This document shows, piece by piece, positions 13,453-31,367 of a stretch of DNA of 64,000 nt (the first letter of the stretch is position 1; each line of letters begins with the position of its first letter). The stretch spans positions 1 through 64,000 of the forward strand of contig JAEOTA010000018.1 of NCBI GenBank assembly GCA_016840085.1, read 5' to 3'. Made by a program: the position numbers and the translations under genes. Under the pieces are notes generated by a model. It saw only the letters and a program-made list of their open reading frames with translations, made no database searches and was not told the origin of the DNA. Source of the DNA: Promethearchaeota archaeon. Its GTDB lineage: Archaea; Asgardarchaeota; Lokiarchaeia; Sigyniarchaeales; SOKP01.

Positions 13453-14025
13453 ATGAGTGCTGATGATAAAGGATTTGGGTTTAAAATAACAGTAATTGGT
13501 GATGCTGCCGTAGGGAAAACTTCCTTAATTAAAAAATATACTCAAGGCTCATTTCAAAAGGATTATATCTCTACTTTGGGTACTCAATTTTCTAAATATG
13601 AAGAAGTTATTGATGGGGAAAAAGTAGAATTATTCTTATGGGATATTGCCGGTCAGGATTCATTTGAAGCATTACGCCAAAGATTTTATACAGGAAGTAG
13701 TGGAGCAATAATTGTTTTTTCTCACGCTCTAGAACAAACTAAAAGTTATGAGCATGTGAATAAATGGCTTTCTGATCTAAAAAACCATTGTGGAAATATA
13801 CCAATTGTTCTATTTGGTAATAAAATTGATTTAATTGATGATGGAGAGTTAGAGTCAAATCCAAATTTACCTACTGCGAATGCAACGGTAGAACAGTTTA
13901 CCAAGGAGAATAGATTCATAGCATATTATAAAACGAGTGCTTTAACTGGACAAGGAGTAACTGACGCATTTAAAGCATTAGTTAGAAAATTATATGAAAT
14001 TGCTAAAATTTCAAATTTTAGTTAA
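13453..14025 (+). CDS. Rab/Ras-like small GTPase (eukaryotic signature protein)
   Basis: FKITVIGDAAVGKTS, YISTLG, LWDIAGQ, GNKID, KTSALTG; no C-terminal CAAX. Confidence 0.92.
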   Translation: MSADDKGFGFKITVIGDAAVGKTSLIKKYTQGSFQKDYISTLGTQFSKYEEVIDGEKVELFLWDIAGQDSFEALRQRFYTGSSGAIIVFSHALEQTKSYEHVNKWLSDLKNHCGNIPIVLFGNKIDLIDDGELESNPNLPTANATVEQFTKENRFIAYYKTSALTGQGVTDAFKALVRKLYEIAKISNFS

Positions 14026-14079: not shown

Positions 14080-16392
14080 TTAGGTACGTTTATAAATAAA
14101 TCGTTCCCAACTTTTTCTGCTTGGCATTTCTAGAGGCATACCCTTCCTTTTGCGTATTTCCATGATTATTTCTTCTTCAAATGAAGCAGGGACACGAGAA
14201 AAACCTTCGAATTCATATCCGAAAAACGCTCTGCCTTGGGTTGATCCTCTAATGTCATCGGCGATCCCGATTGTTTCAGCAGCAGGAATCTGGCCTTGTA
14301 TTCGTACATATTCACCTTCAGGAATGACATTAGTAATTCTACCTCTTCGCTTGGTTATGATTGCAGTGACGCTTCCTTCAGTTCCTTGCGGTGTTTTTAT
14401 ATCTATTCTTTGGATTGGTTCATAAAGATGAGGATCTGCTTCCAGCATTGCTAGGGACATAGCTGAAAAAGCCATTCCTGCAATTTGCCCATATTGAGTA
14501 TGTCTTGGGTCTTCGTGCACTACTAAATCTGTGAAAACGATTTTGAATCCTGTTGCTGGTTCTTTTGCTATAATACAATCACCGAGCCAATCTCTAAAGG
14601 CAGCTGATAAATAAGACTTAACTCTATCAAATCGTTGTAACCCCGCAGCACCATTTACAAGTACGCTTCCATGGTATACATCCACTACACGTCTAGCTTC
14701 TTTTGCATCCCACCCAGCTTCTTCTCTTAGAATCATAGCTCTCTCCTTTTCATTTTGCAAATCATTAACTTTTCCAGTGTCTATTAAGTGTTCAGTAACT
14801 TCATCTAAGGGTTCGACATACAATAAAATTCGATTGTGAGTATTAGCTGATTTGGTATAAAATTCTCGACTCTTTTCTGTAATTTTTTCTCTATATATAA
14901 TAATTGGTTCTCCAATGTCGATTTGAACTTGTTTATTAATCCTTTTAGTCAAGATTTCTATTTGTAACGGATCAATTCCAGAAAGTATAAATTCTCCTGA
15001 CTCATCATCCCTCCTATATTCTGCTTCTGGGTTCGCTTTAAGCCATTTGCCTACTACATCATCTAATTTATCAATTTCATGTGGATCTTTTGGTTTGATA
15101 CTTCTTGACACGACAGCTTCACACGCATATTGAATTTTTTCGAAGGGGTGTAACAATGTCCTTTCTTCTCTATTCTTAGGAACTTTGTTTGTCAGCATAA
15201 ATGTTTCACCAGCGGGGCATACAAATCCAAATAATGCAAATAAGTTCCCTGCAGGTATCTTGGGGATATCTAAAATATCAGTTATTTCCATAACACCGAG
15301 CCTTTTCACTCGATTGCTTGAATCACTATTAATTAAATAAATAGAATCTGTTTGATCAAATGTACCAGAAAAAACACGACCTATAAGGGTGGCTTGAAAA
15401 TTTCTTTTAGGGTCTAAAAAGATCTTAGTAATCATCCCAAAAAGTGGCCCATTTGGGTCACTTCTCTGCAAAGATTGACCTAATTCTGAGTTCAAATCAC
15501 CGCCCCAGATATGTGGGATTCGATATTTAGACGCACTAACGGGATCTGGAAGATGGTCAACAATCATTCTTAACATAGGTTCATCTAAGGGTAAATTATC
15601 CCTTAGCCATTGAATATCTCCTTCATTATATTTCGCAAAGACATCTTGAGGTTTAAGATTTTTCTCAAGTAAAATCTCATAAGTAAACCCCCATCCATGT
15701 TTAGCTGAACCTACAGCTACAGAATTCTTTACAAAATCAATTCCCCAATCCGATCCTTCTGGTCTAACCTTTTTAATTAATTCATTTACTTCTCTTGTAA
15801 TTTTATCTATTTTAGCAAAGGTTTCTTGAGGGCTAAGTTTTAATTCACTTATTAGTCTATCAACCTTATTGATAAAAAGAACTGGTTTGCAGTATTCTTC
15901 ACCAACGGACAATCTAATATTTGTCTCAGTTTGAGTCATAACTCCTTCAAGAGCGTCTACTAAAATTATAGCACCATCACTGCCCCTAAGTGCTCTTGAT
16001 ACTTCTCCTGTAAAACTTATATGACCGGGAGTGTCGTTAAGTTGAATAATATAGGGTTCCTCATCTTTTGGTTTTCTAGAATCTTGAAACGCCAGGAGTA
16101 CTACAGTTGTAAATATCGTGATGCCGCGTTCTTGCTCCTCATCTTTCAGTATATTAAGTATGCCTTAATCTAAATCTGAATCGGTCATTTGGAGCTGCCC
16201 AGCATCTTCTGGTCGCATTAATCCCGCTCTACGGAGCAAATAATCAGTAGCAGTAGTTTTTCCATGGTCAATTTACGCTATAATAAGGAAAACTCAATAT
16301 AGATGCGCAGTTATGGAAAAAATTCGCTTCTTTTCATATGATCCAGAGGTCACGAGTTTGGCGATTTCATCTGGGTTCTTTACTTTAACCAC
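14080..16392 (-). CDS. fusA: Translation elongation factor 2 family GTPase (probably the divergent Asgard EF-2 paralog); spliced CDS join(16303..16392,16174..16272,14080..16143), ~750 aa
   Basis: GTG start at 16392 after AAGTGA. After removing two 30-nt inserts it reads MVKVKNPDEIAKLV...SITAH/IDHGKTT...MTDSD/DEEQERGITIF...NDTPGHISF...NKVDR...GSA...HEDPRH...RGSTQGRA. The ORF track only captured 14080-15939. Confidence 0.93.
16144..16173 (-). other. 30-nt BHB-type intron 2 in EF-2 mRNA (switch I, upstream of RGITI)
   Basis: Sense strand: TCAG AT^T TAGATTAAG GCATA CTTAATATA CTGA AA^G. Perfect 4-bp helix UCAG/CUGA, two 3-nt bulges, in-frame TAA. Removal gives TCA GAT GAT GAG (SDDE). Confidence 0.88.
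16273..16302 (-). other. 30-nt BHB-type intron 1 in EF-2 mRNA (inside the G1/P-loop)
   Basis: Sense strand: GCGC AT^C TATATTGAG TTTTC CTTATTATA GCGT AA^A. 4-bp helix GCGC/GCGU, two 3-nt bulges, in-frame TGA and TAA. Removal gives GCG CAT ATT GAC (AHID). Confidence 0.88.
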
Positions 16393-16603
16393 TGTAAATT
16401 CACTTTAATCTACTTTAATTTAATTTTAATTTTCATGTTATAATTGAAGAAAAGAATACAAGAAATCATAAAAATTTTATGAATTTAAGCTAAAAATCGC
16501 CAAATTTATAAAGGTTTTTCAAGAATAATAGACTAGAAAAACGATATAAACATTATTACTTTTCAAGATTTCGATTAAAACGTATTTTATAAACCTCTAA
16601 CAT

Positions 16604-17340: not shown

Positions 17341-18798
17341 TTAAAGATAAAAAGGTAATACCATATTTATAAGGATATATAAGGTTTTTCTTCCTGATGC
17401 ATTTTGGCTATTAAATGAGTTTGCAATGTTTAATACCTTAAAATTCTCAGGAATTTTACTTTTAATAAAAGATCTTAAAAAAGTTAAGAAATGAGTATAT
17501 TCTCGTTTAGTTTCTACCCATAAATACTCCTTTTTTTCAAAATATTCTGGATTCTTTTTTCTAAATTTGGAAGCATGAGATTCCTCTTTTACTGGAGGTC
17601 CTCTTCGAATATAAGTTTGTGAAATTGTTGGTTTTTCACAATAGAGCGCGAGATTATATTCATTTATTTCATCCTCAAAATAAACTTCAAAAATTACTTT
17701 TCCAAATCTTTCTGCATGTGAAAATTCCTTTTCTGTATTAGCTTTTATTCTTTCTCCAAGCGAATATAATTTATCTCTATTTATTGTATAATGGATTTCT
17801 TGATTTTCGTTTATCAATTCTAATATAAATATTTTTGGAAGTAATGGATCATTTAAATTAGATAAATCTACTTCTGGAATAGGATTTGTTTCGAAAAATT
17901 TTATATTAGGATCTTTTAAAAACTCACTAATTTTGTAATTACAAAATTTATACGCTCGTTCTGATATCGCAGATGCTACATTTCTGTTTTTATCAATAGG
18001 ATCCACTAAAATAAGATAATCATTCTGAAAATGGGTAATACAGTTTAATTCATCTAAGTTCCTGTTATAGTAATCAAGTGGATTATCATTCAAATCTTTA
18101 AAATTCTTAAAAAGATTTATGATATCATTAAAATAGTAAATTAAAAGTTCAGCGCTATATCCAATAAATCCTACTTTTCCTACTGCACTTTTATCGCCAT
18201 AACAATGATTTGCTTTGAAGAATTGTTTTAAAATTCTTACATCATTTTTTTGCTTTTCTGTTAAATTTTTTCTTACAAAATGTCCATGCCAAGGTGATCT
18301 ATCAACAGCAGTTATTGGCCCGTGTTCTTTTATTCTTTCTAAACTTAAAGAAAAGTAAAGAACAATATCAATTTTTATTTGAATATCATCTACCAAATAG
18401 TCTACTGTAACATATGGATGTTCAGCATATAAGAGTCTGGGATTATGAAATTTATCTGATGTTAAACTTTGAATAATCCAATTATTACAGAGTTTTAAAA
18501 AATCTTTTTTAGACTCTTTTTTTAATTTATTCTTGCTTAAATCCTTATATTTAACTTCATATTCCTTATAATCCAATCCAATAAAAAGATCAATGTCAAA
18601 ATCATCTTTTAATTGTGTCTGTTTAATGCCAGTTGAACCTTGAGGTTCGATATGGAAATTTTTAATACTTAGTTCTTTAGCTTTTGAAACTAATAATTTT
18701 TTTAGTTTTTCAGTAATAGTTTCAATTAAAGTTATTTCTTGAGACGTTGGAATAATTCTTTGTAAAACTTCAGTTAATATATCTTTAATAGACGGCAT
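17341..18798 (-). CDS. cca: CCA-adding enzyme (class I tRNA nucleotidyltransferase)
   Basis: GSTG..T.L..DFDIDLF, YAEHPYV, TAVDRSPWH, GFIGYSAELLI, DPID..RNVA.A. Confidence 0.93.
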   Translation of the reverse strand: MPSIKDILTEVLQRIIPTSQEITLIETITEKLKKLLVSKAKELSIKNFHIEPQGSTGIKQTQLKDDFDIDLFIGLDYKEYEVKYKDLSKNKLKKESKKDFLKLCNNWIIQSLTSDKFHNPRLLYAEHPYVTVDYLVDDIQIKIDIVLYFSLSLERIKEHGPITAVDRSPWHGHFVRKNLTEKQKNDVRILKQFFKANHCYGDKSAVGKVGFIGYSAELLIYYFNDIINLFKNFKDLNDNPLDYYNRNLDELNCITHFQNDYLILVDPIDKNRNVASAISERAYKFCNYKISEFLKDPNIKFFETNPIPEVDLSNLNDPLLPKIFILELINENQEIHYTINRDKLYSLGERIKANTEKEFSHAERFGKVIFEVYFEDEINEYNLALYCEKPTISQTYIRRGPPVKEESHASKFRKKNPEYFEKKEYLWVETKREYTHFLTFLRSFIKSKIPENFKVLNIANSFNSQNASGRKTLYILINMVLPFYL

Positions 18799-30400: not shown

Positions 30401-31367
30401 TAGCAAAGATAATTACTACAGGAATAAAAACCCATTTTAAAAAGTTAATTAATCCTTGGTAAAAGGTAGGATATTCACTCCTTTTTGATTGGATGATTTG
30501 AAAGAACACTAATATAACTGTAAAAAGAATTAATCCTCCTGTAGTTAAACTAGAAAATAATTGACCATGATTATATGTTACATATAAAGAAAAAATAAGT
30601 AGCCCTGTTCCCTCAACAGCAGCATAAGAAATCAAAACATTTTCATTGAATTTATCAGAAAAAATTAATATTATGCTAATTAAAGGAATAAGTAAATAAA
30701 CAAATTGATACCCGCCCCAGCTAAGAGATAAATATCCTAAAAAAATGCCACTTAGTATTGAATAAGAGAATTTACCTGTTTTTATTGCTTTTAGCCAAAA
30801 TAAGAAACACATTAGAGTAGCAAAAACTCCAATTGTTTCATTATCAAAAAAACCTGCCATTGTACGTTGCATATATCCTGGATTAAACGCTAAGAAGAAT
30901 GCAGCAATTAACCCAGTTCCACGATCAAGGATTTCTTTTCCTAAATAATATATAGTTAAGACCGTAAGACCCCCCATAAATGCAGGAAAGAAAAAGCAAA
31001 CATCATACAATGACACGGGTATTCTAAAAAAGTCGAGAATCTTATAAATAATAACAACAGTAAAAGTAAGTCCTGGGCGTAAACTTCCCCTGTATTGACC
31101 TTCGGGATACCAGCTTTTTAAATCATGCCAATTGAAGTAATCATATATAGAGTGAGTTGATAAATATTCTGCATTATACCATTGAATCCATGGATCAAAA
31201 GCTTTAATTATATTAGGACCTCTGATAATTGGAGAGATTCTTAATAAAATGGCTAATAAGACTACTAAAAAAATTGCTATAAAAAATAAAACATTTCGAG
31301 TTTTTATAGAGATAGACGTTCTAATGCGATCAAATATATTTCTTAGTGAGGCAATGATTTTAACCAT
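27465..31367 (-). CDS. aglB: Oligosaccharyltransferase AglB/STT3 with long C-terminal beta-sandwich repeat extension
   Basis: FDPW, GFFDNE, SVAEQ, SWWDYGY, DNMTKNST, GGDEGKW.WMVRI, many TM helices. Confidence 0.93.
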   Translation of the reverse strand: MVKIIASLRNIFDRIRTSISIKTRNVLFFIAIFLVVLLAILLRISPIIRGPNIIKAFDPWIQWYNAEYLSTHSIYDYFNWHDLKSWYPEGQYRGSLRPGLTFTVVIIYKILDFFRIPVSLYDVCFFFPAFMGGLTVLTIYYLGKEILDRGTGLIAAFFLAFNPGYMQRTMAGFFDNETIGVFATLMCFLFWLKAIKTGKFSYSILSGIFLGYLSLSWGGYQFVYLLIPLISIILIFSDKFNENVLISYAAVEGTGLLIFSLYVTYNHGQLFSSLTTGGLILFTVILVFFQIIQSKRSEYPTFYQGLINFLKWVFIPVVIIFAIIIWVAPEVLPFGFGTRFQTILNPLFREQVALVASVAEQMPSSWSVFYYNTLIPLILIPLGFYFCFKRLIAADIFLIAFVILMFYFTGSMIRIILIFAPAAALMGAYGLVSILKIFGSFFGERKVGISRKRRRQLKGTIGNSEIFAIYLIIGFLGIAQIVHSTDISIRQFSYSQMVVGGAITDWQESLSWMRSNLKGTDVVVSWWDYGYWLTPVGNVTTVNDNMTKNSTRIGLTGMAMMQPNEIYSAKAFRRLKADYVLVYFGFLLTGLGGDEGKWNWMVRICNDNYAKYKNWEMEEDNWKEDAVFHENEYQNATDGRMGPLWFQSQLAKLMFYRQSTTLEEYGEKDFRRNYPQQINSRQTTDGKVWKDYIPDNGFYDFKVFVPTYISKLGLVKLYKVDYTALESKFLIKDAEVFTDGYATFEMKNTGTKDLLINKVEINGEEYDFIMSSGIGNQTVESGESEVVYVNIKSSGKTFDKDDVVHIDVTAQSEALEGKQYEFSNSTSNFFVKESEKGAIKIIKENSKAIQMNNTSTDVLLEVENVGNTIEILERFYVNNDTDTLRFPYTSIEYLSGSAILKPGEKAKIYLQNANASFYPLSTSNKIGVATTNDLYDEILFSSNKENFTLSILSEDRIISPEFSLISDSYYRKHIPISFSQTHAYTYDNGSTILEINVKNTGEIIFGIDSIYLTESLYKVNFHDYYVKSGDYNLGKGEDETIVIDATDTLAENDITLDVNDELLICVTGSFIGDTVASDIGYIHTAKNKADLKIIETVEGNTTSFIYANETGSLLIKNTGNEEVTIESIYVNNTLAENVVYLYGNDSLDIQECAMVSFDIPNLMINKSNEVNVKVETNFPSVEAVETLYGYVDSKYYNITISDSGTTAFDNGNLTILINNEGLLDVNIESVYINSSINGSYFSLNSFFETSFNITAGTSFQLTLSRTILEGILGSLSPDDKLEILVRTEEGAEYTHLETVK

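What the first reader, a model, noticed from the sequence alone, without database searches (positions are those of the whole stretch)
16273..16302. Intron 1 splits the P-loop and is clamped by an exon-exon outer helix
Seen: the intron lies between His and Ile of AHIDHGKTT. Its inner stem TATATTGAG/CTTATTATA has 8 of 9 pairs and a 5-nt loop. Outside the BHB core, exon 1 TTTTCCAT pairs with exon 2 ATGGAAAA (8 bp) beyond an internal loop, so this is a relaxed BHB/BHL-like substrate. The unspliced mRNA would stop at TGA after 32 codons. Inference: it may need an endonuclease with relaxed specificity, and the exon codons may be constrained by RNA structure.
Basis: partly seen in the sequence, partly recalled or inferred. 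Interest (0 to 1): 0.8.

Follow-up and report, generated by a model that had tools for sequence, protein, structure and literature searches.

The report
tRNA-type mini-intron splitting Asgard EF-2
A 30-base insert shaped like the introns that archaea cut out of tRNAs breaks the GTP-binding loop of the elongation factor 2 gene of a Loki-type Asgard archaeon, and the silent codon positions on both sides let the two exons pair around it, so this mRNA very probably has to be spliced by the tRNA-splicing enzymes.

Summary
On the minus strand, 16302..16273 is a 30-nt, stop-containing insert between His and Ile of AHIDHGKTT in an aEF-2 gene. Thirty-eight distinct intron-less orthologous sequences read straight through this site.

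- **Motif:** the insert forms a 9-bp hairpin, a 3-nt bulge and a 4-bp exon/intron helix (GCGC/GCGU). Cutting after the second bulge base gives exactly the junction that the protein requires. This layout occurs by chance at about 1 in 10,000 positions.
- **Distribution:** the same intron is in three other genomes of the genus (4 of 154 in the order) and on two metagenome contigs.
- **Conservation:** it is far better conserved than silent sites. One stem pair shows a compensatory change, and the central helix is invariant.
- **Outer helix:** However, five of six carriers have their own strong exon-exon duplex (-11.5 to -15.5 kcal/mol). None of the 38 intron-less sequences reaches -10. Intron 2 of the same gene shows the same pattern.
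- **Enzymes:** relatives encode a two-subunit EndA with the broad-specificity loop. This assembly holds only the beta subunit, plus RtcB.

No RNA evidence exists. The scan has already noted such mRNA introns and exon clamps in this genome and in others.

The parts
16303..16392 (-). Exon 1 of aEF-2 (GTG start at 16392; 30 codons ending ...ITAH)
   Evidence: orthologs start with ATG at the same place
16273..16302 (-). Intron 1, 30 nt. Layout: 1 bulge nt + 9-nt arm + 5-nt loop + 9-nt arm + 4-nt exon-pairing strand + AA. In-frame TGA at 16296..16294.
16305..16308 (-). Exon strand (GCGC) of the 4-bp central helix. It is followed by bulge bases A16304 and U16303 (exon) and C16302 (intron).
   Evidence: invariant in 6 carriers; Ala codon GCG in 6/6 carriers against 3/38 intron-less sequences
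16275..16278 (-). Intron strand (GCGU) of the central helix. The 3' cut is predicted between A16273 and A16272.
16279..16301 (-). Inner hairpin h': arms 16301..16293 and 16287..16279, loop 16292..16288
   Evidence: (94% of cells paired; pair 36:50 is U.U, G-C or A-U)
16313..16321 (-). Exon-1 arm (UUUUUCCAU) of the distal exon-exon helix. A further arm AGCG lies at 16328..16325.
16257..16265 (-). Exon-2 arm (AUGGAAAAA, codons His-Gly-Lys of the P-loop) of the exon-exon helix. A further arm UGCU lies at 16252..16249.
16174..16272 (-). Exon 2 (33 codons, IDHGKTT...MTDSD)
16144..16173 (-). Intron 2, 30 nt, same 1+9+5+9+4+2 layout, in-frame TAA. Central helix UCAG/CUGA. Exon-exon helix GCUCC/GGAGC.
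14080..16143 (-). Exon 3 (687 codons plus stop): rest of the G domain and EF-G domains II-V

Best explanation
Intron 1 is a real archaeal endonuclease-type (bulge-helix-bulge family, HBh' class) intron in the pre-mRNA of an aEF-2 gene.

**Shown:**
- The six exon bases before the insert, together with the insert, fold into a 9-bp hairpin, a 3-nt bulge and a 4-bp exon/intron helix.
- The rule 'cut after the second base of each bulge' gives exactly the in-frame junction His|Ile.
- The element is conserved in six alleles.
- A distal exon-exon duplex goes with intron presence.

**Inferred:**
- The heterotetrameric (alpha-beta)2 EndA of this lineage, which carries the loop that allows relaxed substrates, cuts both sites. 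RtcB then joins the exons and restores AHIDHGKTT.
- Unspliced RNA would give only a 32-residue peptide.
- The exon-exon duplex, written into silent codon positions, substitutes for the missing adjacent outer helix. It most likely keeps the two mRNA halves together for ligation, the job the tRNA body does in tRNA splicing.
For: - **Junction and motif:**
- **Chance of the layout at a pre-defined site:** about 1e-4, and met at both inserts of the gene.
- **Presence and absence:** 38 distinct intron-less orthologous sequences are uninterrupted. There are six carriers: G000, G041, G042, G069 and two metagenome contigs.
- **Structure conservation:** the central helix is invariant. The hairpin is 94% paired, with one compensatory and two one-sided changes. 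RNAalifold recovers H+B+h'.
- **Sequence conservation:** intron identity is 73-90% between lineages, against 41-65% at third codon positions of the flanking exons.
- **Intact gene:** the coding sequence is otherwise intact and is 93% identical in protein to the closest relative. It is the only EF-2 family gene in this assembly.
- **Exon-exon duplex, intron 1:** carriers -13.0, -11.6, -11.6, -15.5, -11.5 and -6.6 kcal/mol, against an intron-less mean of -4.4, with 0 of 38 at or below -10.
- **Resampling:** synonymous resampling gives p of 0.001 to 0.014 for five of six carriers.
- **Exon-exon duplex, intron 2:** 11 carriers mean -13.8 against 31 non-carriers mean -6.2.
- **Independent contrasts:** 6 go the expected way, 0 go against and 1 is tied, over both introns.
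- **Enzymes:** EndA beta and RtcB are in this genome. Of 40 relatives, 35 show both EndA paralogs. Alpha has the Tyr/His/Lys triad and the lysine equivalent to A. pernix K44.
- **Literature:** PMC5829648 states that Asgard archaea have (alpha-beta)2 EndA with the L1 loop, and that only such enzymes cut HBh'/BHL substrates. PMC2738675 gives the cut-site rule and the cbf5 precedent.
Against: - No RNA evidence of any kind. A search for the spliced junction in metagenome contigs found nothing.
- The catalytic EndA alpha gene is not in this assembly. Its neighbours from the closest relative are also missing, so an assembly gap is likely but not shown.
- The 3' cut site is not in a closed 3-nt bulge.
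- One carrier (G069) has only a weak exon-exon duplex (-6.6 kcal/mol).
- Covariation statistics on six related sequences have no power: shuffle controls are not exceeded.
- The clamp association rests on few independent contrasts. The sign tests for each intron alone do not reach 0.05.
Confidence: 0.8

Rival explanations
1. The insert is a spliced intron, but the exon-exon helix has no function. It would be a by-product of the codons for I/L-F-S-I and H-G-K in an AT-rich genome, or flanking sequence that travels with the intron when it moves by recombination.
For:
- The helix is not conserved column by column and shows no compensatory change.
- All intron-2 carriers share one flank haplotype.
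- The 5' end of the gene looks mosaic between species.
- G069 carries the intron with only a weak duplex.
Against: - Four lineages use four different helices, which hitch-hiking does not explain.
- No intron-less sequence reaches -10 kcal/mol.
- Each carrier's own exon pair beats chimeric exon pairs: rank fraction 0.11 against 0.62.
- Synonymous resampling gives p of about 0.001 for this genome.
- In two intron-2 carriers the GGAGC arm is re-created 6 nt downstream.
Confidence: 0.2
2. The gene is a decaying pseudogene or a dispensable paralog, and the insert is simply a disabling insertion.
For: - The insert has in-frame stops.
- The protein scores below the curated aEF-2 cut-off: 554 bits against 738, measured without the first 63 residues.
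- Relatives have a second EF-2 paralog.
Against: - 687 further codons are open and 93% identical to the closest relative.
- The exon codons flanking the insert are perfectly conserved in six carriers.
- The insert is exactly 30 nt, is structured, and is more conserved than silent sites.
- The other paralog also scores below the cut-off and is not in this assembly.
Confidence: 0.04
3. The ribosome bypasses the 30 nt (translational hopping) instead of the RNA being spliced.
For: The insert is a stable hairpin with a stop codon near its start, as in known bypass elements (this comparison is from my own knowledge of T4 gene 60).
Against: - There are no matching take-off and landing codons: CAU before the insert and AUU after it.
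- The exact fit to the EndA cut rule, the 4-bp exon/intron helix and the exon-exon clamp are not needed for hopping.
- The same genome and its relatives carry many such inserts, according to earlier notes in this scan (not checked by me).
Confidence: 0.03
4. Assembly or sequencing artefact.
For: The genome is a metagenome-assembled draft with 7.6% estimated contamination.
Against: The homologous insert is at the same site in four genome assemblies of different species and on two unrelated metagenome contigs.
Confidence: 0.01

Closest known systems
BHB-type intron of the cbf5 pre-mRNA in Desulfurococcales and Sulfolobales (Watanabe 2002 and Yoshinari 2006 as cited in Yokobori 2009, PMC2738675)
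   Same: - It lies inside a protein-coding sequence.
- It has an unconventional (relaxed) BHB, with cuts predicted between the second and third bulge bases matching the coding junction.
- It depends on a hetero-oligomeric EndA.
- Its distribution among relatives is patchy, read as gain and loss.
   Different: - A different gene (aEF-2, inside the P-loop) and a different phylum (Loki-type Asgard).
- A fixed, compact 30-nt layout.
- Two related introns in one gene.
- An exon-exon duplex in silent positions that goes with intron presence.
- No cDNA proof here, whereas cbf5 splicing was shown experimentally.
Non-canonical HBh' / BHL introns of pre-tRNAs in Crenarchaeota, and the heavily interrupted tRNA genes of Asgard archaea (Marck and Grosjean 2003 as cited in PMC5829648 and PMC2738675; bioRxiv 10.64898/2026.10.13.758758)
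   Same: - A central 4-bp helix made of exon and intron strands.
- One well-formed 3-nt bulge next to an intron hairpin.
- The other cut site is not closed by an adjacent helix.
- Such introns need (alpha-beta)2 or epsilon2 EndA with the specific loop.
   Different: - The host RNA is an mRNA with no tRNA body to hold the halves. A distal exon-exon duplex seems to take that role.
- The exon strand of the motif is constrained by codons.
Unconventional cytoplasmic splicing of HAC1/XBP1 mRNA by Ire1 and RtcB
   Same: - An mRNA intron is removed by a protein endonuclease that recognises local RNA structure.
- The halves are ligated by RtcB.
- Base pairing between the flanks helps to keep the exons together.
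   Different: - A different, unrelated nuclease (Ire1 kinase-RNase).
- A different motif (two stem-loops rather than BHB).
- It is regulated by stress. Nothing here suggests regulation.

Membership tests
Archaeal EndA-dependent (BHB-family) intron | 4-bp central helix formed by the exon strand just upstream of the 5' site and the intron strand just upstream of the 3' site | tested here: met
   GCGC/GCGU (G.U, C-G, G-C, C-G), invariant in six carriers
Archaeal EndA-dependent (BHB-family) intron | Cuts after the second base of each 3-nt bulge reproduce the junction required by the mature product | tested here: met
   The bulges A,U|C and A,A|A give CAU|AUU, which is AH|IDHGKTT as in 38 intron-less orthologous sequences. 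The cut rule is from PMC2738675.
Archaeal EndA-dependent (BHB-family) intron | At least one flanking helix (h' or h) next to a bulge | tested here: met
   The 9-bp h' hairpin lies directly after the 5' bulge. It is 94% paired across carriers, with one compensatory pair.
Canonical hBHBh' motif | An exon-exon helix h directly closes the 3' bulge, so that both bulges are exactly 3 nt | tested here: not met
   - There is no pair next to AA|A.
- In this genome the 3' site lies in a 3 x 8 nt internal loop before the distal 9-bp helix.
- The consensus fold has no h.
- In G041 and G042 a 3-5 bp helix follows a 2 x 4 loop.
HBh' relaxed class | H and h' with one intact bulge, and the other site in a loop | tested here: met
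   class definition from PMC5829648
Archaeal EndA-dependent (BHB-family) intron | The organism encodes a splicing endonuclease able to cut relaxed motifs ((alpha-beta)2 with the L1/CSL loop lysine) and an RtcB ligase | tested here: inconclusive
   - This assembly has only the beta-like subunit, which has no catalytic His, plus RtcB.
- Of 40 relatives, 35 show both paralogs. Alpha from the closest relative has Tyr/His/Lys and the K44-equivalent lysine.
- The alpha region of that relative is absent from this assembly together with its neighbours.
cbf5-type pre-mRNA intron | Spliced mRNA demonstrated (cDNA or RNA-seq junction) | not testable with these tools
   No transcript data are held. The junction search in metagenome contigs gave 0 hits.
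Self-splicing (group I/II) intron or other curated RNA family | Match to a curated RNA family model | tested here: not met
   No Rfam match at E up to 1 in 15900-16600. At 30 nt the insert is far too short for a ribozyme.

The most novel reading that the evidence does not exclude
Loki-type Asgard archaea carry a class of 30-nt mini-introns in ordinary mRNAs. In this reading, survival of such an intron requires an exon-exon clamp written into silent codon positions, which holds the two mRNA halves for RtcB. mRNA splicing would then shape codon choice. The two EF-2 introns would be copies of one module that was retargeted by changing only its 4-nt exon-pairing strand (GCGU against CUGA), and the module would move between species by recombination.
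Probability: 0.4. Interest if true: 0.85.

Novelty: new variant of a known kind. Interest (0 to 1): 0.72.

Why it matters
In the papers I could search, splicing of an archaeal coding sequence by the tRNA endonuclease is documented only for cbf5 in Crenarchaeota. [quoted passage not shown] One of them lies inside the GTP-binding loop.

The comparison of carriers and non-carriers gives a testable rule: an mRNA lacks a tRNA body, so an exon-exon helix in silent codon positions appears to be needed. If the rule holds, it shows how protein-enzyme splicing can colonise mRNAs, and how it feeds back on codon usage. It also means that gene callers will systematically truncate or split such genes in Asgard genomes.

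Tried and rejected
Carriers are 74% paired with no compensatory change. Intron-less orthologs have a mean of 6.1 of 9 pairs. I first read this as 'the clamp is a coding by-product'. I revised that reading after the single folds and the register-free duplex tests.
2. **Genome-wide scans for the layout plus an ORF-fusion filter.** They gave 680 and 124 candidates with no peak at any length. The output is mostly noise and cannot be used without homology checks.
3. **Test for a dispersed repeat.** I asked whether the hairpin arms of introns 1 and 2 are a dispersed repeat in this genome. There are 97 near-matches against about 100 in a Markov control, so they are not.
4. **Search for the spliced or unspliced junction in metagenome contigs.** Using this genome's exact flanks, there were 0 hits.
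5. **Order-wide pattern search for any 24-40 nt insert at the His|Ile site.** It found only the four known carriers. The other 15 matches are intron-less sequences in which an upstream GCTCAT (or GCCCAC in another GTPase gene) fits the pattern.
   - Carriers have either a histidine-kinase-like ATPase gene or a radical SAM gene upstream.
   - Non-carriers have the same neighbours. I found no nuclease.
7. **Attempt to decide which EF-2 paralog is the canonical one.** Both score below the curated aEF-2 cut-off.
Full report
**What is there.** The window is contig C4 (1-64000) of a 4.68-Mb, 89-contig draft genome. Small Ras-family GTPases and the genome's relatives mark it as a Loki-type Asgard archaeon. 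An aEF-2 family gene lies on the minus strand. Its domains are GTP_EFTU, EFG_II, III, IV and C, and TIGR00490 is the best NCBIfam match. The gene is in three pieces:
- exon 1, 16392..16303 (GTG start, 30 codons)
- a 30-nt insert, 16302..16273
- exon 2, 16272..16174 (33 codons)
- a second 30-nt insert, 16173..16144
- exon 3, 16143..14080

Insert 1 sits between CAT (His) and ATT (Ile) of AHIDHGKTT. The unspliced frame ends at TGA after 32 codons.

**The fold.**
- a 9-position hairpin, TATATTGAG/CTTATTATA, with one U.U and a 5-nt loop
- a 3-nt bulge, A,U|C
- a 4-bp helix, GCGC/GCGU, with a fifth U-A pair in this genome only
- an asymmetric internal loop that holds the 3' site, AA|A
- a 9-bp exon-exon helix, extended by 4+2 further pairs in the 90-nt fold

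The energies are -13.5 kcal/mol (z -2.37) for 76 nt and -17.6 kcal/mol (z -2.96) for 90 nt. PMC2738675 states the rule that the archaeal endonuclease cuts between the second and third bulge bases. Applied here, it gives exactly the junction that the protein requires.

**Is it more than chance?** The layout alone is common in this AT-rich DNA. The window has 12 sites against 13 in resampled controls, about 1e-4 per position. Only two of the twelve break a reading frame, and these are the two EF-2 inserts. The meaningful statement is that a site fixed beforehand by the protein alignment meets the layout, and does so twice in one gene. No Rfam family matches the region.

**Relatives.**
- Thirty-eight distinct intron-less orthologous sequences from the order read AH-IDHGKTT without interruption.
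- A DNA search of the 54 genomes of the genus found the insert in three more: G041, G042 and G069.
- A pattern search for any 24-40 nt insert at this site in 154 genomes of the order found only the same four.
- Two metagenome contigs also carry it.

All six inserts are 30 nt and are clearly homologous. The central helix, the bulges and the terminal AA are invariant. The hairpin is 94% paired. Pair 36:50 appears as U.U, G-C or A-U, and pairs 38:48 and 40:46 switch between G.U, A-U and G-C. RNAalifold recovers only the central helix, the bulge and the hairpin, which is the relaxed HBh' class. With six related sequences the shuffle controls have no power. The intron is 73-90% identical between lineages, while third codon positions of the flanking 189 nt are only 41-65% identical. 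The insert is therefore under constraint, or has spread recently.

**History.** On 900 nt downstream of the introns, this genome is sister to G024, which lacks intron 1 (support 99/96). G069 groups with three non-carriers (98/98). An AU test rejects the four carriers as one clade (p 0.0003). The 5' end of the gene looks mosaic:
- Exon 1 of G024 is 86% identical to G041 but only 72% identical to this genome.
- Exon 2 of this genome is closest to G041, at 91%.

Repeated loss, or movement of the 5' segment by recombination, both fit. The segments are too short to decide between them.

**The outer helix.**
It is 74% paired with no compensatory change. Intron-less orthologs already have 6.1 of 9 pairs there, and one has 9 of 9.
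- *Single folds.* These nevertheless showed that most carriers enclose the core in some exon-exon pairing, each in a different register.
- *Register-free test.* I compared the best duplex between the last 24 nt of exon 1 (central-helix strand and bulge removed) and the first 29 nt of exon 2 after the junction base. Carriers gave -13.0 (this genome), -11.6, -11.6, -15.5, -11.5 and -6.6 kcal/mol. The 38 intron-less sequences gave a mean of -4.4 and a best value of -9.2, and none reached -10.
- *Chimeras.* Each carrier's own exon pair beats nearly all chimeric exon-1/exon-2 combinations: rank fraction 0.11, against 0.62 for intron-less genes.
- *Synonymous resampling.* Drawing each codon from the codons seen at that position in intron-less orthologs gives p 0.001 for this genome and 0.001-0.014 for four others. 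G069 is not significant, at 0.10.

The helices differ between lineages, so shared descent does not explain them:

| Carrier | Exon-exon helix |
|---|---|
| This genome | UUUUUCCAU/AUGGAAAAA |
| G041 | GGUUGUUU/AAACAACC |
| G042 | GGCUGUU/AACAGCC plus GAUCA/UGAUC |
| Second metagenome contig (L061) | GCGG/CCGC plus a U-rich run |

Intron 2 behaves the same way. All 11 carriers pair GCUCC with GGAGC, with a mean of -13.8 kcal/mol. The 31 non-carriers have a mean of -6.2 (Mann-Whitney p 3e-6, not corrected for relatedness). The silent-site pattern is CAG CTC / GAG GAG in most carriers against CAA CTT / GAA GAA in most non-carriers. In two carriers the GGAGC arm lies 6 nt further downstream. One strong non-carrier, G041, has a near-identical metagenomic twin that carries intron 2.

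Phylogenetically independent contrasts all point the same way: 4 of 4 for intron 2, and 2 of 3 with one tie for intron 1. They are too few for significance on their own. Ala is GCG, as the central helix needs, in 6 of 6 carriers and in 3 of 38 intron-less sequences.

**Enzymes.** This assembly holds one EndA homolog of 202 aa with both domains. The catalytic His is replaced by Thr. It is the ortholog of the lower-scoring of two paralogs found in relatives, so it is a beta-type subunit. Of 40 relatives, 35 show both paralogs. The other paralog, from the closest relative, has these features:
- It is 198 aa long.
- It has the Tyr/His/Lys triad.
- It matches the A. pernix catalytic alpha subunit best.
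- It aligns a lysine (ISKPR) with K44 of the Crenarchaea-specific loop.

That gene and its neighbours are absent from this assembly, which suggests a gap. PMC5829648 reports that Asgard archaea have (alpha-beta)2 EndA with this loop, and that only such enzymes cut HBh'/BHL substrates. RtcB is present.

**Mechanism proposed.** The steps are transcription, folding of HBh' plus the distal clamp, two cuts by (alpha-beta)2 EndA, and ligation by RtcB. The structure, the junction fit, the conservation and the clamp association are shown. Cleavage, ligation and the role of the clamp are inferred. The most likely role of the clamp follows from the geometry. After cutting, exon 1 is held only by 4 bp to the intron, and exon 2 is held by nothing unless the exons pair. 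A tRNA body does this job in tRNA splicing.

**Literature and earlier notes.** Six full-text searches found no paper on endonuclease-type introns in Asgard mRNAs or in EF-2. A 2026 preprint on Asgard tRNA introns does not mention mRNA. Earlier notes of this scan report many such inserts in this genome, the relatedness of the two EF-2 introns, and exon clamps in other genomes. I reached the last two points independently before reading those notes. They agree with my results.

**Limits.**
- There is no RNA evidence.
- The genome is a draft with 7.6% estimated contamination.
- The catalytic EndA subunit and the second EF-2 paralog are missing from the assembly.
- There are few independent lineages.
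- The gene tree rests on 900 nt of a gene that shows signs of recombination.

Noticed in passing
window 16144-16173 (minus) compared with 16273-16302: Introns 1 and 2 share the same 1+9+5+9+4+2 layout and 19 of 30 bases. Among 1004 same-layout 30-mers in this genome, identity to intron 1 is 9.7 +/- 2.7, and intron 2 is the best match. Across species the mean is 17.9 of 30. The two introns differ mainly in the 4-nt strand that pairs with the exon (GCGT against CTGA). The hairpin is not a dispersed repeat in this genome.
   Followed up: partly
G000 contig C79:3618-4223 (L001:1210-1818, plus strand): The only EndA homolog in this assembly is a beta-type subunit in which the catalytic His is replaced by Thr. 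In G024 the catalytic Tyr is also Phe. The catalytic alpha gene and its two neighbours from G024 have no match in this assembly.
   Followed up: yes
window 14080-16392: Most relatives have a second EF-2 family paralog of about 730 aa at about 32% identity. It is not found in this assembly. Both paralogs score below the curated aEF-2 cut-off (554 and 623 bits against 738), so which of them is the working elongation factor is open.
   Followed up: partly
window 16303-16392 and orthologs L003, L033: The 5' end of the gene is mosaic. Exon 1 of G024 is 86% identical to G041 but 72% identical to this genome, although G024 is this genome's sister over the rest of the gene. This genome also starts with GTG where all relatives have ATG.
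   Followed up: partly
L060:2669-2698 (metagenome contig JABUBL010012382.1): A near-twin of G041 carries both introns, whereas G041 itself has only intron 1 yet keeps the strong GCUCC/GGAGC exon pairing. This looks like a recent precise loss of intron 2.
   Followed up: partly
G000 contig C24, plus strand, 30 nt starting near 30582; also C9 (minus), C78 near 52861, C75 (minus): Further 30-32 nt inserts with the same layout join two open frames and carry an early stop. The one in C24 ends in GCGTAA, like intron 1. They are unverified candidates from a noisy scan.
   Followed up: no
window 13453-14025 (plus) and 17341-18798 (minus): A Ras/Roc-family small GTPase lies just downstream of EF-2, and a CCA-adding enzyme lies two genes upstream, beyond a radical SAM gene.
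   Followed up: no
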